Source: Octopus vulgaris (lineage: Eukaryota). From it: 64,000 nt of DNA. The translations under genes and the position numbers were made by a program. Under the pieces are notes generated by a model that did not search any database, had not been told where the DNA came from, and saw only the letters and a program-made list of their open reading frames with translations. The stretch spans positions 37,076,001-37,140,000 of the forward strand of contig OX597830.1 in NCBI GenBank assembly GCA_951406725.2, given 5' to 3'. Of the stretch, positions 5,747 to 53,599 are shown piece by piece. Numbering within the stretch: position 1 is the first letter of the stretch; every line of letters begins with the position of its first letter.

Positions 5747-6619
5747 CAAAGCGTGCGATGGGTAAATTGTCACCCTTTACATTTTTTTTACTTTCGCGCA
5801 TGCGTATTGTATGTTTTTGATTTTGTTGACTACACAGTATAGTATGATCGGTTGGGCAGCGTCTGTGAGAAACAGCACAATGACGCAATTCACTCAACCA
5901 GAAATTTGGAAACGACATGCTATACTACCTGACATTCGTGCTGGAAGCTCCAGTACGAACAGATGGTGAACATAGAACGAAAATTGGCCTGGGTTTCCCC
6001 AAAACAGGCATCGAAAGTGACAAAAATCAAACATCCAGTCAACACCATGGTGTTTGTAGTGATCACTAGTGATGGTGACGTTATGCCTTCATTCAACTTC
6101 AACACAGAGGCCTGCATCAAGTGCTTGGAGGAGGTAGTGGTGCCCTGGGTGAAGAGAGTGGCTGCTGGAAGACCCTATATCTGGCAAAAGGACTTTGCAC
6201 CATTCAACTCAAGTAGGAGAACCCAGCCATGGCTGTCAGACAACGTCTGCGTCCACATCACCCCTAAAACCTGGTCACCTAACTTCCCAGACTGCAAACC
6301 CCTGGATTATTATGTGTGGGGCGCAGCTGACCGAGAGACTAACAGAACTCCTTGTAATACCAAAGATGAACTGAAGGCAAGGATCATTGCAGCATTCACC
6401 AACTTAAACAAGGAGACCGCCCAGAAGAGTTGCAGAGTTGCAGGAGACTACGAAGTCGTCTGGAGGTCGTGATTGAAGCCAATAACGATTTTATTGAATG
6501 AATTTACTCTAGTATTTCAAAATATTATGTAATTTTGGTAAATATATCTGTCAAAATGAAATGACAATGTTATTTTCAATTTTGCATAATTTAGACGACA
6601 TCTTATTCACCGCACCCTG
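5747..6619 (+). mobile_element. Internally deleted Tc1/mariner element, maT/DD37D family
   Basis: TA-flanked imperfect TIRs (right end TTCACCGCACCCTG|TA). The N-terminus MTQFTQPEIWKRHAIL is joined directly to the catalytic region. ORF 5963-6472 has WQKDFAP...SPNFPDCKPLDYYVWG with 37 residues between the second and third Asp. Confidence 0.9.
5963..6472 (+). pseudogene. DD37D transposase catalytic-domain fragment
   Basis: 169-aa ORF with degenerate QQDxAP and SPDxNPLDY motifs; lacks the HTH and the first catalytic Asp. Confidence 0.85.
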
Positions 6620-7423
6620 TATATGTATATGCGTGTGTGTCTGTGTGTGTGTGTGTGCGTGCTTGCATAGGTTTACGTTTGTGTGACTGTGTGTGTATAC
6701 ACACATCTACACACACACACACTGTCTCTCTCTCACACTGTCTCTCTCTCACACACGCATACACATTAGTATGTATGAACTTGATTAGAATACTATTTTT
6801 CTATATTGCTACAAATGGGAGAATAGTATTTTATGTAGAGTTACGTTTCATTTAGATCTCTGAAAGTCCAACGACCGCAGTGAAGCCCAGTTTCCGCTTC
6901 TGATCTATTTAAAATACCTTATTATTATCTTGGAGTTCTAGTCTTTTTGTAGCAAATAGATGTCTTTGAAGGACGCAAAGAATTTCTTCATCTGTAGCAT
7001 AATATATCTTGTTGATTTGAATTGGTTTTGGAAATATGTCAGAAATGTGATTTCATTTATTTGTTCCTTGCCGTTGATGTGTGTGTTTGTGTGCTTTGTT
7101 GTATGTTTTCTTGTGAGTTTTGTGCGTGTTTGTTTGTGTGTGTGCATTTGTGTTCGTGTTGTTATATAAGTGTGTGTGCGAATGTTGTTATGCGTTTGTG
7201 TGTGTGTCGTTATGAAGATGAGGGGTGAAAAACACAACGGCATCTGGATGAAGATAAGCAGTGAACGAACATAAAGCATCTTTTAACTTTGATAAGACTT
7301 GAAGATATATTTGGAAAACGATAGAAAGGCTTTTTTCATCCAGGCTTACTTCAGGCATCAAGTTTTGTTTCCCAGTAGATTACGTGTTCCCGCTATGACT
7401 AGGTTTTAATATTATGAGAGTTT

Positions 7424-10576: not shown

Positions 10577-11016
<440 letters not shown>

Positions 11017-11017
11017 A

Positions 11018-12077
11018 CAGGGTGTCGTCTAAATTACGCAAAAATGAAGATAACTCTGACATCTCATTTTCACAGATATATTTACCAAAATTACATAAAA
11101 ATATCTTGAAATACTAAAGAGTAAATTTATTCATTAAAATCGCCATTGGCTTCAAACATAGCTTCCAGAGGACTTCAGAATCTCCTGCGCAATTTTTCCG
11201 GACGCTCTCCTTGTTTAAGTTGGTAAACGCTACCATAATCCTTGGTATTACATGGAGTTTTGTTGGTTTCTCGCTCAACTGCGCCCCGTATATAATAAAG
11301 TGGATTGCAGTCTGGGAACTTAGGTGGCCAGGTTTTAGGGGTGATGTTGTCGCCAAAATTGTCTGACAGCTATGACTGAGTTCTCCTGCTTGTGTAGCAT
11401 GTCGCAGAGTCCTTTTGCCAGACATAGTCTCCCAGCAACTACCCTCTTGACTAAGGGCAGCATTACCTCGTCCAACCACTTGATGTAGGCCTCCGTGTTG
11501 TCTGTGAGGCTATGTAGTAAAATAAATGAAGGTATAACGTCACCATCACTAGTGCTCACTCCGAACACCATAATGTTGAATGGTTGTTTGATTTTTATCG
11601 CTCTCAGTACATATCCTCAGATTCTTATCTACTCTAGGCACAAAGCCTGAAATTTTGGGGGAAGGGGGTCAGTTGATTAGATCGACCCCAGTACGCAAAC
11701 TTATACTTAATTTATCGACCCCCCAAAGGAGGAAATGCAAAATCAGCTTCGGCGGAATTTGAAGCCTGAACGTAAAGACAGGTGAAATACCGCTAAACTT
11801 GTCGCCCGGCTTGCTAATGTTTCTGCCAGCTCGCCACCTTTACATGTCCTCAGTTTTCACTGTCGTCAGAGTGACATCCAAACACTCTAAAATGTGCGTA
11901 CTGGAGCCGTATGCCGTTTACAAATTCCTGGCAGTGTGAATTGCGTCATGGTGTTTTTTCTCACAGACGGTGCCCAGCTGACCCTACTATACTGTGTAGT
12001 CGGTAAAAAACAAACAAACAATGCGCATGCGCAAAATTGAGAATATGGAATGGCGACAATTTTCCCATCCCACCATG
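11018..12077 (-). mobile_element. Second maT/DD37D copy, internally deleted and interrupted by a SINE
   Basis: Homologous to 5747-6619 ([13 protein letters not shown]; MVFGVSTSDGDVIPSF..NTEAYIKWLDEV). TA-flanked termini; the TIR at 11018 has an internal deletion. Confidence 0.88.
11621..11840 (-). mobile_element. SINE family C inserted in the maT copy, 13-bp TSD
   Basis: Head AAGGTGGCGAGCTGGCAGAAAC and Meta-like GGGGTCGATAAATTAAGTA. TSD TACATATCCTCAG (11608-11620) / TACATGTCCTCAG (11841-11853). Confidence 0.9.
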
Positions 12078-18646: not shown

Positions 18647-19257
18647 AAGTGGCCAGCATGGGAAAAAATACCGTACAAAGTTAATAATTGTTTGCAACTA
18701 AAAATAAGGGTGTCTAAGAGACACCACCATGCCGAAATAGCAGTCAAAACCCTGACTTTAAAAACCACGTTAAATGTTCATATCGTACCATGAGATAAGA
18801 CAGAGGGACAAAATAGGCTAGCAAAAAATATTATTGAATAATTCAAGATCCAGGATTTCTGGTTTTGCTTTAAATCGGTTGAATATATCAAAAGTACATA
18901 GTTGTAAAAAATTATTACCTTTGTTACTAGGCCAGCAGTTAGGGGGCCGGGTTTACGCATAAATATATGCATACGTGCATATATATGTATGTATGGACGT
19001 TCGTATATGTAAGTATATCGTTTGTTCTGCATATATATATATCTGTACGTTTGATATATTCAACCGATGACGGTAAAGCAGACGAGGGCAGCGGAATCAA
19101 ACTCCCGTATTCACCAGATGGAGTGACAGCTGGGAGAAGGGGCACATACAGGACATGTGATGTGAAGCGCCTCAGGCTGAGGAGATCAGAAAGACTAAGG
19201 TGGTGCCGCAGTATGAAGGCAGCCGCAAGAGTGAAAGATTATATGATTATATATATA

Positions 19258-19490
19258 TTTCTTTACTACCCACAAGGGGCTAAACACAGAGGGGACAAAC
19301 AAGGACAGACAAACGGATTAAGTCGATTATATCGACCCCTGTGTGTAACTGGTACTTATTTAATCGACTCCGAAAGGATGAAAGGCAAAGTCGAACTCAG
19401 AACGTAATTTGAACTCAGAACGTAACGGCAGACGAAATACGGCTATGCATTTCGCCCGGCGTGCTAACGTTTCTGCCAGCTCGCCGCCTT
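19258..19490 (-). mobile_element. SINE family C, well preserved, with Tx1-LINE-like 3' tail
   Basis: tRNA-like head (GGCGAGCTGGCAGAAACGTTAGCAC..GAGTTCAAAT), Meta-like GCCTTTCATCCTTTCGGAGTCGATTAAATAAGTACCAG, and tail TCTGTGTTTAGCCCCTTGTGGGTAGTAAAGAAA; TA-rich flanks. Confidence 0.9.
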
Positions 19491-19858
19491 TTATATATAT
19501 ATAGGTGTGTGTGTGTGTGTATGTTGCGTATGTATATGTATTATAAGGCTGTGGAACACGTAACTATAACATTAGGCATCTCTCGTAGATATTCAGTAGC
19601 AGTAAAGGCCTTCGGTTTCAATTTTCGAATTTGTTTGCTAACTGACTACAACATGTAAAATACTAAGAACGAGTCCTCCACAAAAGTTTTGTAAACATCG
19701 GCTGCCAATTGAAGTCACGTGCTGAGAGGTTATGTAAATCACGCTTAGACAAACAGAACTTCCCTGTATTTCTTCTTCTATGAATGGATAATAGATGCAA
19801 TTATTTAGCCTGAAGTTAGACTTGACACAGAAAGCTTTGATCAACTGTATAGTAAACT

Positions 19859-20078
19859 GCCTTTCATTCTTTCGGGTCCGGTAAAATAAGTACCATTTGA
19901 GCTTTGGAGGTCGATGTAATCGACGTAAACTCGGCCCCCTAACTGCTAGCCTTGTACCAAAATTGAAGTCATTCTTATTGTTTATTACTCCGCGGAGGTC
20001 AACTTTGCCTTTCATCTTTTCGGGGTCGATTAAATAAGTACCAGTTGCGCACTGGGGTCGATGTAATCGACATGATCC
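19859..20078 (+). mobile_element. Two 5'-truncated SINE family C fragments
   Basis: GCCTTTCAT..TTTCGGGGTCGATTAAATAAGTACCAG-like cores at ~19859 and ~20007. Confidence 0.8.
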
Positions 20079-20141
20079 CTTGAGCGGGTTATTTAAATCA
20101 CGCTTGGACAAATGCTACTTTCATGTATTCCTTCTATAAAT

Positions 20142-20502
20142 CGTGTCACTCCGTCGGTTACGACGACGAGGGTTCCAGTTGATCCAATCAACGGAACAGC
20201 TTGCTCGTGAAATTAATGTGGAAGTGGCTGAGCACTCCACAGACACGTGTACCCTTAACGTAGTTCGCAGGGAGGTTCAACTTAACACAGAGTGTGACAG
20301 GGCTGGCCCTTTGAAATACAGGTATAATAGAAACATGAAGAGAAAGTTGTGGTGAGAGAGTACAGCGGGGTTCGCCACCCACTGCAGGAGCTTCAGGTGT
20401 TTTCGCACCTTAAACACTCACACCGCCCGATCTGGGAATCGAAACAGCGGTCCTACGACCGCGAGTCTGCTGCTCTAACCACTGGGTCTTTGCGCCTCCA
20501 CA
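20142..20502 (-). mobile_element. tRNA-headed SINE family B, full length, 11-bp TSD
   Basis: Head GGAGGCGCAAAGACCCAGTGGTTAGAGC..GTTTCGATTCCC (A/B boxes); 3' hairpin CGTCG-TAAC-CGACG; TSD CTTCTATAAAT at 20131-20141 and 20503-20513. Confidence 0.9.
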
Positions 20503-20609
20503 CTTCTATAAATAGATAATAGATGCAATTATTTTGTTTGCAGTTAGACTTGATAGAGAAGGCCAAAATCTAAGACATTGTGCCTATAGTAGAAAGTATT
20601 ATTGTTATT

Positions 20610-21035
20610 GTTAGCGCGTCGGGCAAAATGCTTAGTGGTAGTTCGTCTGTCTTTATGCGCTGAGTTCAAATTTCGCCGACGTCGACTTTGCCTTCCATCC
20701 TTTCAGGGTCAATAAAATAAAGACCAGCTGAACATTGCTGTGGATGTAATCGACTCGCCCCCTTCACCGAAATTACTAGCCTTGTGTGAAAATTTAAAAC
20801 CACTATTTTTATTATCATAAAAGCAGAGTGTTGGCAGGATCGTTAGCATGTCTGACACATTGCTTATCAGCCATTCTTCCGGTTTATGTTCTTAGTTCAT
20901 ATTCTGCCGAGGTTCCCTTTTCCTTTCATCCTTTCGGAGTCGATAGAATAAGTATCAGTTGAGAACTGGGGTCGATGCAATCGCCTACGCCCTCCACTAA
21001 AATTTAAGCCCATACGCCTATAGCACAAAGGACTA
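20610..21035 (+). mobile_element. Two tandem SINE family C copies (~20610-20800, ~20820-21035)
   Basis: Each has the head, a GAGTTCAAAT-like B box, the GCCTTYCATCCTTTC core and the tail. Confidence 0.8.
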
Positions 21036-21889
21036 TTATTATTATTATCATGTCTTCAATTCGAAAGATTTCAGTTTCGCTAAGGGATTACTTCTTCCTT
21101 CATTGAAGTTTACAGTGGCCACAGAAGAGTAAAACGTTCCAGTAAACAGAAGCAAATTATTCCGTTCTTTTGCTTTCAATTATTTCATTATACTACGTAG
21201 ACACTATCATACTTTATCACGGTATTACATTTAATTCATTTTAGTGGAGAAAATACTTAACTAATTGCTTTTATACAATAAATATATTTATAAGAAATTG
21301 AAATATCTAAATCCGGTGGGGATCCAGCGTTTTAATTTCATGTTGAAATTAATTATGTGCCGTTTTAAGGAAAACAACATTGTTGCACAAATCATCGACG
21401 CATTTCAATATATTTATTGCATATAATTCATTACACGAGCGAGAAAAAAGCTGTAAAAGTAACTATTCCACACTCTTGGTTATGTTATTTAAATCTCATT
21501 GTTCCAAATGAAGCTACCTGTAAAATGAAGCATTTTACAACCTCTCGTAAATTTAAGATCAATTCCTACAAAAGGAAATATGGGAGAGAACCACTATCAT
21601 ATATATGTGTATAAAATTAATTGAAACCATACAAGAAATCGATTTAATTTCACTGTAACTGGAACAACTATAAAATCCTAACCCTTGCATTCCATCGAAC
21701 CTTGGGACACACTCCCTGTCACCGCCGATGCATCTCCGTTGGTGATGGACTGAAATCTCACGAAGCTGTACCTTTAAAATGTTTAGCGTCTTCTCTCTCC
21801 AGACCTTCTAGATCGCTAGAAAATAGTAAGATATTATTCCAAGGTGGGCAGCCATATTTAAAACGAATGGCGATGCTCACTCCTCTCGC

Positions 21890-26973: not shown

Positions 26974-28110
<1,137 letters not shown>

Positions 28111-28860: not shown

Positions 28861-29385
28861 GAGAGAGCAGCGCATGCCATCAAAGTGACATTGGAGTTCA
28901 AATAGATGAAGCCCAACATGCCCATCATGATTTTCAATATGATAAGTGTACAGCACATACATCACAAACATATATGCGCATGATATTGTGATTTCATATC
29001 ATGATAAACAGCGCAGTTGGTACCCAGTTAGAATTTCGTTCAGGTTGAGTAGCCCACCCCATTCAAAAGGTCTCTGAATAAGGGCTGTTTAAGGATATTG
29101 AATGAATAAAGGAGAAATATGCAAACCTCAAAGAATTCCTCTCATCACATGGCTATGATGCTTCCCCACTATTTCTGCTGGTGATCAGAGATGCACATAT
29201 CGTCAGCCACTAAGGGACATGCTCAACTAGTTAAGGCCAAACAACTGATAATCAAATCTGTGGCATTTAGCAGAATATTTGTTGTAGTCCATCGTTTATA
29301 CCAAGACAAAACATATACATGACAGTACTGCCAATCAATTAAGATTAGAAGCCATGAGAGTCAGTGCCTGGTACTGCATCAGGGT
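28861..29385. mobile_element. Repeat family E: ~550-bp non-coding element flanked by trinucleotide repeats
   Basis: Colinear with 34253-34801 from GAGAGAGCAG to CCTGGTACTGCATC; followed by (TTC)n at 29389-29502. Confidence 0.85.
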
Positions 29386-29406
29386 ATATTCTTCTTCTTC
29401 TTCTTC

Positions 29407-29438
<32 letters not shown>

Positions 29439-29917
29439 CTTCTTCTTCTTCTTCTTCTTCTTCTTCTTCTTCTTCTTCTTCTTCTTCTTCTTCTTCTTCT
29501 TCTATATTTTTCGCTTTTGCTTTGTATTTGTGCACGTTAACTCCAAGTCTCACTCAGAAACCTCAAGAGACAACAAGTTAAAAGTTCAAGATGGTGTTTT
29601 GTCTAGGTTGCCATATTTTGGTTTTTTCCCCAGAGTGTTGCTCTAGAGAATGTCACTCAAAACATAAGAAAATTAGAAGATTGTTTTAAACATAGCTTAA
29701 TCATAAGTTGATAGCGTGATCTAAAGATGACCTTAAAAAGTGTGTGCTGTTTGGTACATTTAAAAGTACTTTTAACAATATTTACAGTTAAAAATGTTTT
29801 GGGAATTACACAGACAATATTATTATTATTAGAAATATTAAATTTCTAAATCTCTCAAGGAGATATGTACGGTGGTGGGGCGATAGAATGGCTGTATATT
29901 ATCAATCTAACGTGAAC

Positions 29918-30003
<86 letters not shown>

Positions 30004-30012
30004 ATTATAATT

Positions 30013-30577
30013 CAGTAGTTTTATTTTTGTGGCGTGCTTTCACTTCACTACCGAGCGCAGCTCTGTGTGCCTTGGGTATGTGCTGTGTTTTGTTGTGATG
30101 CACTGATGGTTACTGTATTGAAAGTGTTTTGCGTAGGATGTGGGCAGTGCCCAGTAGTGCAATTTCTGTGTGTTATATGTGTTTGTATGTCCTGGTGTTT
30201 TTGCTATGTATTTGTCTGAATATTCTTTTATCATGTCTAATGCACCTACTATGATAGGAATTGTTACTGTTTTTAGATTCCACATTCGAGTTACCTCTAT
30301 TTCTAGATCTTTGTATTTTGAAAGTTTCTCCATTTCTTTTAAAGACACGTTGTCATCTGCTGGCATTGATACATCAATTAGATAGCATTTCTTTCTTCAT
30401 GATCTCTGACAACTATATCTGTTATGTTGGCCTTAATTTCTCTATCTGTGTGTATTGGCATATCCCAGAGTACGGTTGCTTTCTCGTTTTCTGTGACCTT
30501 TTCTGGGGTGTGCCTATACCATCTTTTTTCTGTTGTTATTCCATAATGTTGGCATATCTTCCTGTGTATGTAGGTCC

Positions 30578-30579
<2 letters not shown>
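30013..30579 (-). mobile_element. R4/Dong 3' fragment, same family as 36539-38153, inside (TAA)n
   Basis: IPADDNVSLKEMEKLSKYKDLEIEVTRMWNLKT..PIIVGAL; same 3' junction (ATT)n-CAGTAGTTTTATTTTT; (ATT)n on both sides. Confidence 0.92.
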
Positions 30580-30656
<77 letters not shown>

Positions 30657-34252: not shown

Positions 34253-38153
<3,901 letters not shown>

Positions 38154-38175
38154 TGTCTTTAATAGTAGTAGTAGT

Positions 38176-38304
<129 letters not shown>

Positions 38305-38321
38305 GTTCTATATATGCGAAC

Positions 38322-38501
38322 GGGCATATGGCCTAGTGGTTAAGAGTGCGGGCTACTAACCCCAAGATTCCGAGTTCGATTCCAGGCAGTGACCTGAATA
38401 ATAATAATAATAATAATCTGATAAAGGCTGGAAGGTGTATCAGCCGAAACGTTGTTAACAACAAACAAGATGAGGACAGATATCCGTCAAATGTAAATAA
38501 T

Positions 38502-38504
<3 letters not shown>
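38322..38504 (+). mobile_element. tRNA-like head + (AAT)n + hammerhead-like motif (SINE-like), copy 1
   Basis: A box TGGCCTAGTGG, B box GAGTTCGATTCC, anticodon-arm-like GGG-CTACTAA-CCC; then CTGATAA-A-GGCTG..CAGCC-GAAAC-GTT at 38418-38453. Confidence 0.7.
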
Positions 38505-38569
<65 letters not shown>

Positions 38570-39157
38570 TTATGAAAACTCTCAGTTTATTTTGCTGGGT
38601 ATGATGGAAAATGTAAGCTGTCGACAGCCAGCAGACTAAGGTGACACTTGATTACTGGTCATATTTCAAGAACCCCGCGAAAAATTCTTGCGGTTCCAAG
38701 CAATGCTGATTTTTCTCGGTGTTCTACCTTTACAGTTGTACCCATCTTTTTCAGCCATGCCGGTAGTTAAGTTTTGACGCTTTCAAGTGTTTCAAGTTAC
38801 TATTAGTACCACGTCTATCCTCCTCATTGAGCAAAATCTTCATATTTCCCACTTCAAATCGTCGGGGATGTTCAGTTTTTCTTCTTTCTCGTTGTTTCTG
38901 TTGTCACCGGGACATGCTATGTCGATTATCATGCAAGTTCTTTCCTTCTTATTCACCACAACCATGTCCGGCTTCCGACGCCTGGTCAGGTGATCGCGCT
39001 AGATCATTGCATCCCACAGGATTTTGGAATTTTCATTCTCGGTGACTCCTTCTGCGGTTTTCTCATACCACGTCTTTGCTCTGTGTAGGTCGTGATTTCT
39101 ACAAAGCTCCCAATGGATCATTCTTGCCACATTGTCATGTCACCAGTTCTAATCCCA
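38570..39157 (-). mobile_element. R4/Dong RLE 3' fragment (different subfamily), copy 1
   Basis: HDNVARMIHWELC..WYEKTAEGVTENENSKILWD..RRKPDMVVVNKKERTCMIIDIACPGD; flanked by (ATT)n. Confidence 0.85.
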
Positions 39158-39334
<177 letters not shown>

Positions 39335-39351
39335 GTTCTATACATGCGAAC

Positions 39352-39534
39352 GGGCATATGGCCTAGTGGTTAAGAGTGCGGGCTACTAACCCCAAGATTC
39401 CGAGTTCGATTCCAGGCAGTGACCTGAATAATAATAATAATAATAATAATCTGATAAAGGCTGGAAGGTGTATCAGCCGAAACGTTGTTAACAACAAACA
39501 AGATGAGGACAGATATCCGTCAAATGTAAATAAT

Positions 39535-39537
<3 letters not shown>
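39352..39537 (+). mobile_element. tRNA-like head + hammerhead-like motif, copy 2
   Basis: Duplicate of 38322-38504. Confidence 0.7.
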
Positions 39538-39623
<86 letters not shown>

Positions 39624-40211
39624 TTATGAAAACTCTCAGTTTATTTTGCTGGGTATGATGGAAAATGTCAGCTGTCGACAGCCAGCAGACTAAGGTGACA
39701 CTTGTTTACTGGTCATATTTCAAGAACCCCGCGAAAAATTCTTGCGGTTCCAAGCAATGCTGATTTTTCTCGGTGTTCTACCTTTACATTTGTACCCATC
39801 TTTTTCAGCCATGCCGGTAGTTAAGTTTTGACGCTTTCAAGTGTTTCAAGTTACTATTAGTACCACGTCTATCCTCCTCATTTAGCAAAATCTTCATATT
39901 TCCCACTTCAAATCGTCGGGGATGTTCAGTTTTTCTTCTTTCTCGTTGTTTCTGTTGTCACCGGGACATGCTATGTCGATTATCATGCAAGTTCTTTCCT
40001 TCTTATTCACCACAACCATGTCCGGCTTCCGACGCCTGGTCAGGTGATCGCGCTAGATCATTGCATCCCACAGGATTTTGGAATTTTCATTCTCGGTGAC
40101 TCCTTCTGCGGTTTTCTCATACCACGTCTTTGCTCTGTGTAGGTCGTGATTTCTACAAAGCTCCCAATGGATCATTCTTGCCACATTGTCATGTCACCAG
40201 TTCTAATCCCA
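39624..40211 (-). mobile_element. R4/Dong RLE 3' fragment, copy 2
   Basis: Duplicate of 38570-39157. Confidence 0.85.
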
Positions 40212-40274
<63 letters not shown>

Positions 40275-40289
40275 GTTATTAATATTACG

Positions 40290-40420
40290 AAGGCGGCGAG
40301 CTGGCAGAACTGTTAGCACACATGGCGAAATAGCAGTATTTCGTCTGTCCTCACCAGAATTTTAAAATTAAGTACCAGTTATGCATTGAGGTCGATATAA
40401 TCGATTGACCCCTCCCCCAC
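40290..40420 (+). mobile_element. SINE family C, internally deleted
   Basis: AAGGCGGCGAGCTGGCAGAAC..TAAGTACCAGTT..GGTCGATATAATCGA. Confidence 0.8.
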
Positions 40421-40424
40421 ATGG

Positions 40425-40696
40425 ATCACAACCATATGTGCACAACAGGGTATTCTCATACCAAGACAAACAATGCGTGACCTTGCAGGTGCGACCCAGT
40501 TAGAATTTTCTTCAGGTCAAGTAGCTCATCCCTCTCAAAAGGTCTCTGAATAAGGCTTGTTTAAGGATGTTGAACGAAACACCCATGTTTCCAAAGGTGA
40601 ATTATTCAAACCCCAAAGAATTCATCTTAACACGTGGCTATGATGCTCCTCCACTACTTCTGCTTGTGATCAGAGATGCACATATCGTCAGCGACT
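40425..40696. mobile_element. Repeat family E, internal fragment
   Basis: ATCACAACCATATGTG..CCAGTTAGAATTTTCTTCAGG..GTGATCAGAGATGCACATATCGTCAGC. Confidence 0.85.
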
Positions 40697-40870
40697 ATTA
40701 GCCTTATTATTATTATACAAGGATTCTAGACGCGTTTGGTGGTGTGTGTTTTGGGCATTGGAAGCGATTTTTAGTATGTAAAGAACTCTTAGAGGTGCAA
40801 ACAAAAGACTCAATCACAAAAATCTCACCAAGTGTAATTATTGTTATGAGAATGTATTTTTTAATTATAA

Positions 40871-50221: not shown

Positions 50222-50247
50222 TGTCTGTCTGTCTGTCTATTTGTCTG

Positions 50248-50344
<97 letters not shown>
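50222..50344. repeat. (TCTG)n/(TCTA)n microsatellite, 5' flank of the Tx1 LINE
   Basis: Directly visible. Confidence 0.95.
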
Positions 50345-50378
50345 TGTTGTTTTCTATTGTTTCTATCTATTGTTATCT

Positions 50379-51743
50379 ATCGTGTCTAGCCACGAGCACA
50401 TCGAGCTGGTCGGCGAGACACTGAAAAACTACGAAGCGGTGACAGGAGCGAAAATCAACCGGGAAAAGTCAGTGGGCTTGCGACTAGGCACCTGGGGAAG
50501 CAAGCCCATGCCGTCCACCAGCGCCTCCGTCGTGGGACGCTGGCCCGACGGCCCGGTTGAGTTGCTCGGGGTCTGGTTTGGTCCGGACCTCCAAGTGGAG
50601 AAGAACTGGAACGAGATAACGAGTAGGGTGGTCACTCTCGCCCGGCAATGGGCCGAGAGGAAACTGTCCCTAAAAGGTCGAGCGGAGGTGGCGAACACGT
50701 ACATCGCGTCCGTCATCTACTACCGCCTGACCGTCGTACCTTGTCCCGACCCTACCATCACCAAACTACAACGCATCCTCTTTCGCTTCTTGTGGAAAGG
50801 ATGCGTCCCGATGGTCAGGCGATCCATTTGCTGTCAACACCCGTTAAAAGGAGGGCTGGGCATGCCGTGGTTGATGATGCGCAGACACGCGCTGAGACTG
50901 CGGCATCTCTGGCTCTATGTAGACGACGGTGAACAGGTGTGGTCGCCGTTTGTGAGGCACGCTTTCCCGCAGCTCGTCTCCATGACCGAACTGCAGTCGT
51001 GGATCAAAAAGAGGCCGAGGAAGGGCGAATGGCACCGCGAGTGTCGCGTTGCTCTCAAGCAACTCTGCCGTCCTGGGTCGACCTTAAGTGACTTCAACAC
51101 AACCAAAGCATTCTATAGGGGTTTAGTGGAGGGGAGGTACGACGACGAGCTCGGGGCGAACCTGGACGTCGACGAGGAGTACCTGACCCGCCTGTTCAGG
51201 ACGACTTTCGGGCCAGGGCCCATGGACAACTTCCAGAGATCCCTGGCCTGGCAGTGCTACCGAGAAGCGCTACCCGTTCGGGATAAGCTCTACAGACACG
51301 GCTCGAGAAACACGGGGCCGACCTGCCCGAGATGCGGTCAGAGCGACGAAACCGTTCTGCACGCACTCGTTCAGTGTCCAACAATTTCCGACCTGTGGGC
51401 TTATGTCGAACAACTGCTGTCACGTGTGGGACGAGTCGGTTTATCAGCTGAGTCTATCGTCAATATTGTCACGCCTCCTTCCTTCAAACGGGAAGGAAGA
51501 GCTATTTTCATCATCCTTGTGGCTATGGCGAAAGAATGTATCTGGTGGACGCGTCTGAAAGGATTGGAGACAAACACTTTCCTCTCTGGTCAATCTCTCA
51601 TCAACTTCTTCAAGTACCACTTGAAAAGGAAAGTGAGAGTAGAGAGGCAAGTTTTGTCTAGCGAATGTTTTAAAAAAAGATGGGTGAATGTAGCAAGAAT
51701 GGCACGTATGAATGACGAAGCCACCTTGAGCATAGTCCTATGA
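50379..51743 (+). CDS. Tx1-type ORF2 C-terminal part (RT end, thumb, CCHC finger); partial
   Basis: YEAVTGAKINREKS, LLGVWFG..NW, W..RKLSLKGRAEVAN, FLWKG, GGLGMP, LPVRDKL, CPRCGQSDETVLHALVQC. The N-terminal SIYL run of the listed ORF is microsatellite. Confidence 0.9.
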   Translation: MVSSHEHIELVGETLKNYEAVTGAKINREKSVGLRLGTWGSKPMPSTSASVVGRWPDGPVELLGVWFGPDLQVEKNWNEITSRVVTLARQWAERKLSLKGRAEVANTYIASVIYYRLTVVPCPDPTITKLQRILFRFLWKGCVPMVRRSICCQHPLKGGLGMPWLMMRRHALRLRHLWLYVDDGEQVWSPFVRHAFPQLVSMTELQSWIKKRPRKGEWHRECRVALKQLCRPGSTLSDFNTTKAFYRGLVEGRYDDELGANLDVDEEYLTRLFRTTFGPGPMDNFQRSLAWQCYREALPVRDKLYRHGSRNTGPTCPRCGQSDETVLHALVQCPTISDLWAYVEQLLSRVGRVGLSAESIVNIVTPPSFKREGRAIFIILVAMAKECIWWTRLKGLETNTFLSGQSLINFFKYHLKRKVRVERQVLSSECFKKRWVNVARMARMNDEATLSIVL

Positions 51744-52120
51744 ACCCAGAAATCGAAAACAGAGAGTTGCTTATTTGCAAAAAAAAAATAAAGAAATATA
51801 AAATGTGACATCATTGACCGAGGTTACCGTGGTCTTTTCCGTAGGCTTTTCTTTGCACGGGTAAACCTCACCTGTCATCCCCTTTACACTTCATATTGAC
51901 ATTTCTGTGATAACGATCCCTATTGATCAATTTTTTTCCTCCCCCCTTTTTTTAAACCCCCCTTTTTTTTGTCCTCTTTCTCTCCTTTTACAATCCCTTT
52001 TGATCGAAACTCCCCCTTCCTTTTTTTTTTTTTTTTTTTTCTTTCTTAAACCTTCAAAAGAAAAGCTCTACCTTGTAATTTGTTCTATCTGTGTGCAGCC
52101 CTGTGTGGCTAATAAAGAAA
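50379..52120 (+). mobile_element. Young 5'-truncated Tx1/L1-clade LINE in (TCTA)n
   Basis: Intact ORF remnant, visibly more GC-rich than the host DNA; pyrimidine-rich 3' UTR ending AATAAAGAAA; TCTA repeats on both sides of the cluster. Confidence 0.92.
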
Positions 52121-52132
52121 CATATCTATTGT

Positions 52133-52426
52133 TGTTTTTTTTCCATCCCCCAAAAGAAAAGCTCTACCTTGTAACTTGTCCCATCTGTGTACAGCCCTGT
52201 GTGGCCAATAAAGAAACTTATTTATCTATCTATCTCTTTTCCTCTTTTTTCTTCTTTTTTTCTTTTCTTTTGTTTCTTTTCCTTTTTTCTCTTTTTTTCT
52301 TTTTCCCTTTTGCGATCCCTTTTGATCGAAAACCTACGCCACTTTTTTTTTCCATCCCCCAAAAGAAAAGCTCTACCTTGTAATTTGTTCCATCTGTGTG
52401 CAGCCCTGTGTGGCTAATAAAGAAAC

Positions 52427-52427: not shown

Positions 52428-52502
<75 letters not shown>

Positions 52503-52553
52503 ATATCTATCTATATGTCTGTCTGTCTGTTTGTCAGTCAATCTGTCTGTCTA

Positions 52554-52596
<43 letters not shown>

Positions 52597-52787
52597 TTCT
52601 ATCTATCTATATTTTATTTAATCGGTAAAAGTTGCAAAATGACTGAGGTACATCAGTAATTGCCAATGCACGAAACGCTCGGTCCTGTGAGACTTTGGAA
52701 TTTTTCTGATTAAATAAAAAAAAAAAAATCTATATGCCCTCATGGCTTTCGAGTTCCATTTTTCTCCTTCTTTATAAGCTTATACCT

Positions 52788-53205
52788 AAGGCAGTGAGCT
52801 GGCAGACTCATTAGCACGCCGGACAAAATGCTTAGTGGCATTTCGTCTGTCTTTTCGTTCTGAGTTCAAACGACCTGGTGTTTCATTCTTTCGGAGGCTA
52901 TGAAATAAGTAGCAGTTAAGCACTGGGATCAAGGTAATCAACCAACCATCCTTCTCAAAATTTCGGTCCTTGTGCCTATAAAACAAGGGATTTTAAACCC
53001 TATGAAGCAGAATCGCTAACCTGACCGAGAAAATACTAAGCGACATTTCGTTATGTTTCTGTTCTGAGTTCAGCTATCGCCGAGTTCGATTTTGCCTTCG
53101 AACCTTTCGGGGTCGATAACATAAGTACCAGTTGAGTACTGCGGTCGATATAAACGTCTTCCACACGCGTCAAATTTGTCAGTCTTGTGCCAAAGTATGA
53201 AAGAG
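52788..53205 (+). mobile_element. Two tandem SINE family C copies
   Basis: AAGGCAGTGAGCTGGCAGAC.. head; cores TTTCATTCTTTCGGAGG.. and GCCTTCGAACCTTTCGGGGTCGATAAC..AGTACCAG. Confidence 0.8.
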
Positions 53206-53599
53206 TTATTAAATCTTTCTGTATGTCTATCAATTTAAAACCATACACCCCCTCACACATTTATTCATTATATTACAACGATTCCTTTAGAAGTTGTCAG
53301 ACGAAAATACCTAGCATCATCACAATAACTAATGAAAAAATTAACTTTTATAAACGGTGCAAAGGCTAAAAGTTCGAGAGTGGGGAATTGTAAAAGAATA
53401 TTACGTCAGAGATAAAAAAGACCAAGCCAAAGAGAGGTAAGAAAACATATTTAAGGGTATCAGTTTCAGAGAATATCGACTGAGCAGAACCAAATCACAT
53501 ATAGTATAGTGTTACGAAAATTTTAAAAAGAACGATTTCTGTATGTGAATTATACATTCTCAGATCATGAACAGTGCAGGATAATGTTTCAAGTATGGA

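What the first reader, a model, noticed from the sequence alone, without database searches (positions are those of the whole stretch)
19258..19320. Meta-type SINE carries the 3' tail of the microsatellite-associated Tx1 LINE (candidate SINE-LINE partnership)
Seen: the minus-strand tail of this SINE (CCTTG-TTTGTCCCCTCTGTGTTTAGCCCCTTGTGGGTAGTAAAGAAA) aligns along its length with the 3' terminus of the Tx1 LINE at 52071-52120 and 52167-52216 (CCTTGTAACTTGTCCCATCTGTGTACAGCCCTGTGTGGCCAATAAAGAAA). Both stop at the same AAAGAAA and run into TA-rich repeat. Other family C copies here end in a different tail (..GGCCTTGTGCC..). Known: SINEs borrow LINE 3' ends to be recognised by the LINE RT, and most documented partners are CR1, L2 or RTE. 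Inference: a tail swap created a SINE subfamily mobilised by a Tx1-clade LINE, possibly inheriting its microsatellite targeting.
Basis: partly seen in the sequence, partly recalled or inferred. Interest (0 to 1): 0.8.

Follow-up and report, generated by a model that had tools for sequence, protein, structure and literature searches.

The report
Octopus SINE with Tx1 LINE tail
A very abundant short mobile element of octopuses ends in the same 48 letters as a Tx1-type long mobile element, which suggests it borrows that element's copying enzyme, and many of its copies sit directly against fixed points in the front end of other copies of its own family.

Summary
The last 48 nt of the SINE (19258-19305, minus strand) match three co-terminal 3' ends of a Tx1-type LINE at 78-81% identity; 0 of 500 shuffles scored as well against the whole window. 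The tail is not a local chimera. In 4 of 4 public runs laid, under four organism labels, 98,000-364,000 contigs map to the SINE, and tail depth is about 10^6 times flank depth in the three runs covering the flank. Eight other window copies end in an unrelated tail, so a tail swap is supported. The Meta-domain motif tested is absent from the SINE. The SINE does not visibly share this LINE's (TATC)n target: its best-supported 3' junctions run into two fixed sites in the head of its own family (19474, 19441), with TA flanks a minority. Best reading: a Tx1-tailed SINE subfamily moved by a sister Tx1 family. Nine literature searches found no SINE with a Tx1 tail. Repbase, Dfam and SINEBase sequences could not be checked, and mobilisation is inferred, not shown.

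The parts
19258..19490 (-). Full-length SINE copy, 233 nt, of the Tx1-tailed subfamily
   Evidence: bounded by a direct duplication; depth rises about 10^5- to 10^6-fold over the 3' flank across this span
19258..19305 (-). 3' tail homologous to the Tx1-type LINE 3' end; no poly(A)
   Evidence: 78-81% identity, co-terminal, 0 of 500 and 0 of 1000 shuffles
19306..19320 (-). Linker between body and LINE-like tail; replaced by other linkers in organism E
   Evidence: No alignment to the LINE; loose ends at 19303 and 19312 in run X16
19468..19478 (-). A-box-like motif of the head; contains junction site 19474
   Evidence: Sequence; A-box consensus is recalled; ARAGORN and Rfam give no tRNA hit; joints 19474 to tail
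19436..19445 (-). Second junction site (19441/19440), where tails of other copies join
   Evidence: Joints and loose ends in runs X9, X5, X8
19406..19416 (-). B-box-like motif, followed in this copy by a private short duplication (about 19392-19405)
   Evidence: Sequence; consensus recalled; depth drop and loose ends at 19394-19406 in all four runs
19352..19362 (-). Central motif resembling the 3' part of the CORE domain of BivaCORE-SINE2
   Evidence: One mismatch; 3 of 4 window matches fall in SINE copies, but 4 matches is chance level
19491..19501 (-). 5' copy of the candidate target-site duplication (11 nt, TA-rich)
   Evidence: low complexity, so weak on its own
19247..19257 (-). 3' copy of the candidate target-site duplication
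50381..52120 (+). 5'-truncated Tx1-type LINE: open ORF2 C-terminal half to the stop at 51741-51743, 3' UTR, tail 1
52139..52216 (+). Second, very short LINE 3'-end copy (tail 2)
52235..52425 (+). Third LINE 3'-end copy (tail 3); 5' limit approximate
50338..50353 (+). 16-nt target-site duplication of the long LINE copy (second copy at 52123-52138)
50224..50344 (+). (TCTA)n array upstream of the LINE cluster
52428..52610 (+). (TATC)n array downstream of the LINE cluster

Best explanation
This is one full-length copy of a very abundant octopod SINE subfamily. A tRNA-like head and body, shared with other subfamilies, was joined to the last ~50 nt of a Tx1-group LINE, replacing another tail. Shown: the homology, the shared end, the high copy number, presence in several species labels, and the different tail of the other copies. 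Inferred: RNA polymerase III transcribes the SINE from its internal boxes; a Tx1 ORF2 protein recognises the borrowed 3' end and copies the RNA by target-primed reverse transcription, leaving a short duplication. The working partner is probably a sister Tx1 family, not the (TATC)n-seated family in this window, because the tails differ by about 20% and the SINE's commonest visible landing places are two fixed sites in the head of its own family, plus some TA runs.
For: Tail homology and controls. Tail depth 4e7-1.2e8 against 72-233 on the flank in X9, similar in X5 and X8; 364,055, 346,007, 141,364 and 97,754 contigs laid. The SINE is held at 0.75-0.90 of 20 words in 16 of 24 listed runs under five organism codes. 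Antisense read-through of this tail in proteins named Octopus bimaculoides (P0161, P0167). Two common tail variants move towards the LINE letter: 19283 (58% of depth in X16) and 19268 (15-19% in X9, X5, X8). LINE class: relatives carry endonuclease, RT and zf-RVT, some fused to ZCCHC3-type RNA-binding domains; a close relative (P0002, 70% identical) scores 196 bits against a protein named TX1 149 kDa and 79 bits against human L1 ORF2. Tail sharing as the mark of partnership: PMC3747384, PMC4824008.
Against: No retrotransposition test. Tail identity is only 78-81%, and no closer Tx1 family could be retrieved. The tail hairpin is not more stable than shuffles (z from -0.44 to +1.35 over 6 folds). 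The SINE and LINE targets differ. The SINE's duplication is low-complexity. Tx1 assignment rests on transferred names and domain make-up; the tree had no L1 outgroup and only the quick search finished. The 5' junctions were hidden because reads were cut at 19487-19600, so some tail copies could be internal parts of larger units.
Confidence: 0.7

Rival explanations
1. One reading: the very LINE family in this window moves the SINE and gives it microsatellite targeting.
For: The window copy sits in a TA run next to (CA)n; both duplications begin with TAT; 2 of 8 tail ends readable in spurious proteins look TA-flanked (P0162, P0166, read by eye); TA-type flank depth is 14.5% of the next bin in X16.
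Against: All three LINE ends abut TATC-type sequence. The best-supported SINE tail junctions go into SINE heads, and the TA-flank bin holds 3.8-4.8% of the next bin's depth in X9, X5 and X8. No genome background was available to test enrichment.
Confidence: 0.1
2. The tail came from a Tx1 LINE but is a passenger: copies multiply inside composite or tandem SINE units moved by another LINE, or arise by template jumps between SINE RNAs.
For: Tail-to-head junctions are very common, and 3 of 4 spurious proteins that read through a head continue into a second tail (P0163, P0164, P0168). Other-tailed copies also form head-to-tail clusters in the window (19830-21050, 52788-53215).
Against: The window copy ends exactly at the tail with a duplication. 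The letter at junction 19441 shows the decayed form in 27% (X9) and 19% (X5) of depth, close to the family's 24-25% at that place, as expected if the downstream part is a pre-existing, already mutated genomic copy (partial counts).
Confidence: 0.13
3. The flow went the other way: the LINE captured the 3' end of the SINE, whose true partner is a third element.
For: The SINE is far more abundant; direction cannot be read from four sequences.
Against: All three LINE ends (90-95% alike) carry the tail behind LINE 3' UTR sequence. Organism E has other linkers in front of the same tail, as expected for a module gained by SINEs.
Confidence: 0.05
4. The likeness is chance, or the tail is only a drifted form of the other SINE tail.
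For: Short GT-rich sequence; 2 of 8 other tails reach 39 and 46 of 1000 shuffles against the new tail, uncorrected.
Against: 0 of 500, 0 of 2000 and 0 of 1000 shuffles for the LINE match; 0 of 8 other tails match LINE tails 2 or 3 significantly (best 66 of 1000).
Confidence: 0.02

Closest known systems
SINE/LINE pairs with a shared 3' tail (58 pairs, mostly CR1 and RTE partners; PMC3747384, PMC3472496)
   Same: tRNA-like head, about 50 nt of LINE-derived 3' end, shared terminus, tail exchange between subfamilies.
   Different: The partner is of the Tx1 group. Those papers list only three SINEs with L1-clade tails, in maize/sorghum and Chlamydomonas, and mention Tx1 only in passages on phylogeny. 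No significant hairpin was found here.
SINEU of crocodilians with Tx1-Mar (PMC4494074)
   Same: A short element thought to be moved by Tx1 and preferring sites inside another mobile element.
   Different: SINEU has snRNA heads and poly(A) ends, and the paper found no LINE similar to the SINEU-1 3' half; the link rests on target preference. Here the tail itself is shared, and the apparent target is the SINE's own family.
Microsatellite-targeting Tx1 families Kibi, Koshi and crocodilian (TTCC)n/(TTTC)n families (as described in PMC4494074)
   Same: The window LINE has three ends stacked in one microsatellite, with a 16-nt duplication.
   Different: The repeat is (TATC)n; relationship to Kibi/Koshi was not tested because no reference sequences were available.
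MetaSINEs (PMC4824008)
   Same: tRNA-like head; variable tails; a cephalopod member exists (SepiaSINE2).
   Different: The Meta motif tested is absent, and by eye the body does not resemble BivaMeta-SINE1 or BivaMD-SINE1.
Octopus OR1/OR2 CORE-SINEs and OK (Ohshima and Okada 1994; seen only as a citation in PMC4824008 and PMC4758252)
   Same: Octopus tRNA-derived SINEs; tRNA-Core is a main octopus SINE class (PMC8967140).
   Different: No tail partner is given in the passages read.

Membership tests
tRNA-derived SINE | Short, interspersed, multi-copy, non-coding element | tested here: met
   233 nt; 11 family copies in the window; 98,000-364,000 contigs per run
tRNA-derived SINE | tRNA-derived head with A and B boxes | tested here: inconclusive
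   Box-like motifs seen by eye against a recalled consensus; no ARAGORN or Rfam tRNA hit
tRNA-derived SINE | Target-site duplication | tested here: met
   11-12 nt direct repeat at both ends, low complexity
tRNA-derived SINE | Transcription by RNA polymerase III | not testable with these tools
   Only compatible: no run of four T inside the element
MetaSINE | 66-bp Meta-domain directly after the tRNA part | tested here: not met
   A 12-nt motif from the bivalve Meta-SINE alignment gave 16 window matches at 2 mismatches (10.75 expected), none in 19258-19490; no likeness by eye. The Meta consensus itself is a figure and was not held.
CORE-SINE | CORE domain | tested here: inconclusive
   An 11-nt motif of BivaCORE-SINE2 matches at 19352-19362 and in two other copies, but 4 matches is chance level; full domain not compared
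SINE/LINE pair (stringent type) | Shared, co-terminal 3' sequence | tested here: met
SINE/LINE pair (stringent type) | Tail is family-wide | tested here: met
SINE/LINE pair (stringent type) | Conserved stem-loop with compensatory changes | tested here: inconclusive
   A 4-bp hairpin is predicted at about the same place in 4 of 6 folds, but none beats shuffles
SINE/LINE pair (stringent type) | Same target preference as the partner | tested here: not met
   For this LINE family: (TATC)n against SINE heads and TA runs
SINE/LINE pair (stringent type) | Tail-dependent mobilisation by the LINE protein | not testable with these tools
   Needs a retrotransposition assay
Tx1-group LINE | L1/Tx1 ORF2 layout: AP-type endonuclease, RT, C-terminal zinc-binding domain | tested here: met
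   zf-RVT in the window ORF; full layout in relatives; endonuclease and most of RT are truncated in this copy
Tx1-group LINE | RT phylogeny with reference Tx1 rather than L1 | tested here: inconclusive
   196 against 79 bits for a close relative; tree without L1 or curated Tx1 references
Tx1-group LINE | Target-sequence preference | tested here: inconclusive
   Three ends stacked in one (TATC)n array; one locus only

The most novel reading that the evidence does not exclude
A major octopus SINE subfamily took the 3' end of a Tx1 LINE and is moved by a Tx1 endonuclease/RT that cuts a short motif (T-R-G-C, then R-G) present twice in the SINE's own tRNA-like head, once inside the A-box. The SINE would then insert preferentially into older members of its own family, making its own target sites and breaking the promoters of older copies. 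It would be an animal L1/Tx1-group element with stringent tail recognition and a self-targeting partner SINE.
Probability: 0.4. Interest if true: 0.8.

Novelty: new variant of a known kind. Interest (0 to 1): 0.62.

Why it matters
L1-clade LINEs are held to be the exception to tail sharing: the survey in PMC3472496 found three SINEs with L1-clade tails among 58 pairs, all in plants or algae, and proposed that strict 3'-end recognition was ancestral. A Tx1-tailed SINE in an animal would make that idea testable on the animal side. SINEs make up 11.6% of the Octopus vulgaris genome and 893 of 900 recently active SINE families there are unclassified (PMC13282606), so naming a partner for an abundant subfamily would help explain the octopus SINE expansion. 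Preferential nesting into its own head would also explain SINE clustering.

Tried and rejected
No whole genome is held for this window, so consensus building and genome-wide flank counts were impossible. Tail patterns gave 0 hits in viral and genome contigs and 2 hits in metagenomes, both in bacterial-looking coding DNA. A body pattern gave 3 hits that match only 21-24 nt. Searches for DNA of LINE relatives found none, so conservation of the tail among Tx1 families is untested. A word-index protein search with the antisense SINE frame found 0 of 34 candidates. The other tail does not match the 3' end of the second LINE type at about 36555-36700 or anything else in the window except one tail fragment. 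Tail folding was not significant. Earlier scan findings: none in four look-ups. SINEBase supplements and PMC4795812 were not available; the supplements of PMC5786205 and PMC4494074 were not read and could hold a Tx1-tail pair. I considered that young copies have lost the 19441 site and so escape self-insertion (the window copy lacks it); the data cannot be phased, so this stays a guess.

Full report
Setting. The window is animal DNA, 33% G+C and rich in microsatellites. Named relatives of the LINE protein come from Argonauta hians, Octopus sinensis and O. bimaculoides, so it is most likely octopod. No genome is held for it.

The observation. The SINE lies on the minus strand from 19490 to 19258 between two copies of an 11-nt TA-rich repeat. 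Its last 48 nt align with three LINE ends: 33 of 42, 39 of 50 and 34 of 42 identical, all ending at the same AAAGAAA. Shuffled tails scored a mean of 24.9 and at most 38 against the whole window, versus 44 observed (0 of 500); against the LINE locus 0 of 2000. With other scoring the result was 0 of 1000 for each LINE end. Of 10 other family copies in the window, 8 end in another tail and 2 have neither. None of those 8 tails matches LINE tail 2 or 3 (best 66 of 1000), and the best two reach only 39 and 46 of 1000 against the new tail, uncorrected. The tail is therefore a replaced module.

The LINE. An open frame runs to a stop at 51741-51743 and holds a zf-RVT domain. The copy is cut at about 50381 and is bounded by a 16-nt duplication (50338-50353, 52123-52138). 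Two more short 3'-end copies follow, 90-95% alike, and the cluster lies between two TATC arrays. I read this as repeated insertion into one microsatellite; it is one locus. Full-length relatives have endonuclease, RT and zf-RVT domains, and some are fused to ZCCHC3-type RNA-binding domains. P0002, 70% identical to the window protein, scores 196 bits against an alligator protein named TX1 149 kDa and 79 bits against human L1 ORF2. The quick tree puts the window protein with Argonauta and unnamed relatives but has no L1 outgroup. Tx1 group is likely, not proven.

Is the tail family-wide? Yes. Sixteen of 24 listed runs hold 0.75-0.90 of the SINE's 20 sampled words, under five organism codes. I laid 4 of these 24 runs, all contigs. 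Contigs laid: 364,055 (X9), 346,007 (X5), 141,364 (X8), 97,754 (X16). Summed depth over the tail peaks at 1.2e8, 9.5e7, 1.3e7 and 6.6e6, against 72-233, 55-103 and 12-16 on the 3' flank of X9, X5 and X8; X16 does not cover the flank. The tool warns that this is no copy number. Dividing by flank depth and by 31 for overlapping words gives a rough floor of 2.6-5.5 x 10^4 copies (my inference). One contig each in X9 and X5 spans the 3' flank into the tail with no differences, so the junction is real; X9 may be the window's own sample. A profile search with the antisense frame gave 13 proteins, 10 of them SINE-like by eye; two are named O. bimaculoides. Common variants at 19283 (58% in X16) and 19268 (15-19% in X9, X5, X8; 6% in X16) carry the letter seen in LINE tail 2, while variants at 19287 and 19292 do not move towards it. 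X16 shows other linkers in front of the same tail.

Where copies land. The bin covering the TA flank holds 4.7%, 4.8%, 3.8% and 14.5% of the depth of the next bin in X9, X5, X8 and X16; the TA run fills about half of that bin, so true shares may be up to twice that. Nine of the 15 best-supported joints shown (617 not shown) join the tail's end to the inside of the SINE. From 19437-19440: 115, 164, 79 and 6 contigs; from 19474: 12, 27, 11 and 21; from 19394: 5, 5, 6 and 2. Loose ends agree: at 19440, 927, 1135 and 552 contigs continue into tail sequence (agreement 0.53-0.58); at 19256, 1064, 1576 and 765 contigs have a consensus running into the 19441 site (0.39-0.41), and in X16 579 contigs run into the 19474 site (0.43). 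Counts are partial, as the tool says. Of 4 spurious proteins that read through a SINE head, 3 continue into a second tail near 19474 and 1 into an intact 5' end (read by eye). Both main sites read T-R-G-C then R-G-W-A in window copies 11671-11841 and 40290-40347; the focal copy has only the 19474 site. At 19441 the junction letter shows the decayed form in 27% (X9) and 19% (X5) of depth, near the family's 24-25%, which fits insertion into older genomic copies. Against this, 5' junctions were hidden (reads cut at 19487-19600), the 19394 site does not fit the motif, and template jumps or tandem units would give similar joints.

Family label. The Meta-domain motif tested is not in this SINE, and the body does not look like BivaMeta-SINE1 or BivaMD-SINE1. 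An 11-nt motif of BivaCORE-SINE2 matches in three copies, at chance level for the window. No tRNA model matched; the A- and B-box reading uses a recalled consensus. Tail folds do not beat shuffles.

Mechanism. Most likely (0.7): the SINE gained a Tx1 3' end, probably by template switching, and is copied in trans by a Tx1 ORF2 protein that recognises it. The partner is probably a sister family with another target. Homology, abundance and tail swap are shown; recognition, partner identity and self-targeting are inferred.

Literature. Nine searches were answered; none listed a paper describing a SINE with a Tx1 tail or this octopus pair. Seen: PMC4824008 (text parts 1-2 of 6, passages, supplement parts 1, 3, 4 and search hits); PMC4494074 (parts 1 and 3 of 5, passages): SINEU is linked to Tx1-Mar by target preference, ends in poly(A), and no similar LINE was found for SINEU-1; PMC3472496 (part 1 of 3) and PMC3747384 (part 1 of 8, passages, part of Table 1): three L1-tailed SINEs among 58 pairs; PMC5786205 (passages; no 'Tx1' or 'octopus' in the main text); PMC13282606 (parts 1-2 of 3, supplement search): 13 recently active and 80 total L1-Tx1 families, no partner analysis in what I read; PMC8967140, PMC4758252, PMC3531059, PMC3787270 (passages). 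The 1994 octopus SINE paper was seen only as a citation. Repbase, Dfam and SINEBase sequences could not be searched, and the library lacks most subscription papers, so prior description remains possible.

Verdict. A real, family-wide SINE-LINE tail match with an apparently unreported partner group, plus an unexpected pattern of nesting at fixed sites in its own head. New variant of a known kind; interest 0.62.

Noticed in passing
window 36560-38339 (-) and 29960-30580 (-): A second LINE type with a 565-aa open frame and a zf-RVT match, seated in long (TAA)n arrays; a 93% identical 3' fragment lies nearby. It looks like Dong/R4 (label recalled, not tested).
   Followed up: partly
window 19830-21050 (+) and 52788-53215 (+): Head-to-tail clusters of the other-tailed SINE copies, several 5'-truncated and starting right after the AT-rich end of the previous copy.
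   Followed up: partly
window 40290-40700 (+): A SINE head and deleted body fused to part of another repeat family (also at 28861-29511 and 34257-34930), which is flanked by ATT or TTC repeats.
   Followed up: no
window 38159-39233 and 39189-40287: A tandem duplication of about 1.1 kb at 96% identity that includes a tRNA-like short element and a LINE-like fragment between ATT arrays.
   Followed up: no
window 26974-27303 and 27680-28008: A 330-bp inverted repeat at 99.7% identity flanking about 375 bp; possibly a young foldback element or an assembly artefact.
   Followed up: no
window 34802-36562: A 1.76-kb (ATT)n array at 99% purity directly beside the second LINE's 3' end.
   Followed up: no
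window 50354-50380: Short slipped copies of the target sequence between the LINE's 5' duplication and its truncation point.
   Followed up: no
window 5933-6657 and 10952-11605: Two copies (75% alike, opposite strands) of a decayed frame that resembles a Tc1/mariner transposase fragment (label recalled, not tested).
   Followed up: no
proteins P0004 and P0161-P0169: A relative of the LINE protein is filed under a bacterial genome bin (likely host contamination), and antisense SINE frames appear as predicted proteins in public collections.
   Followed up: partly
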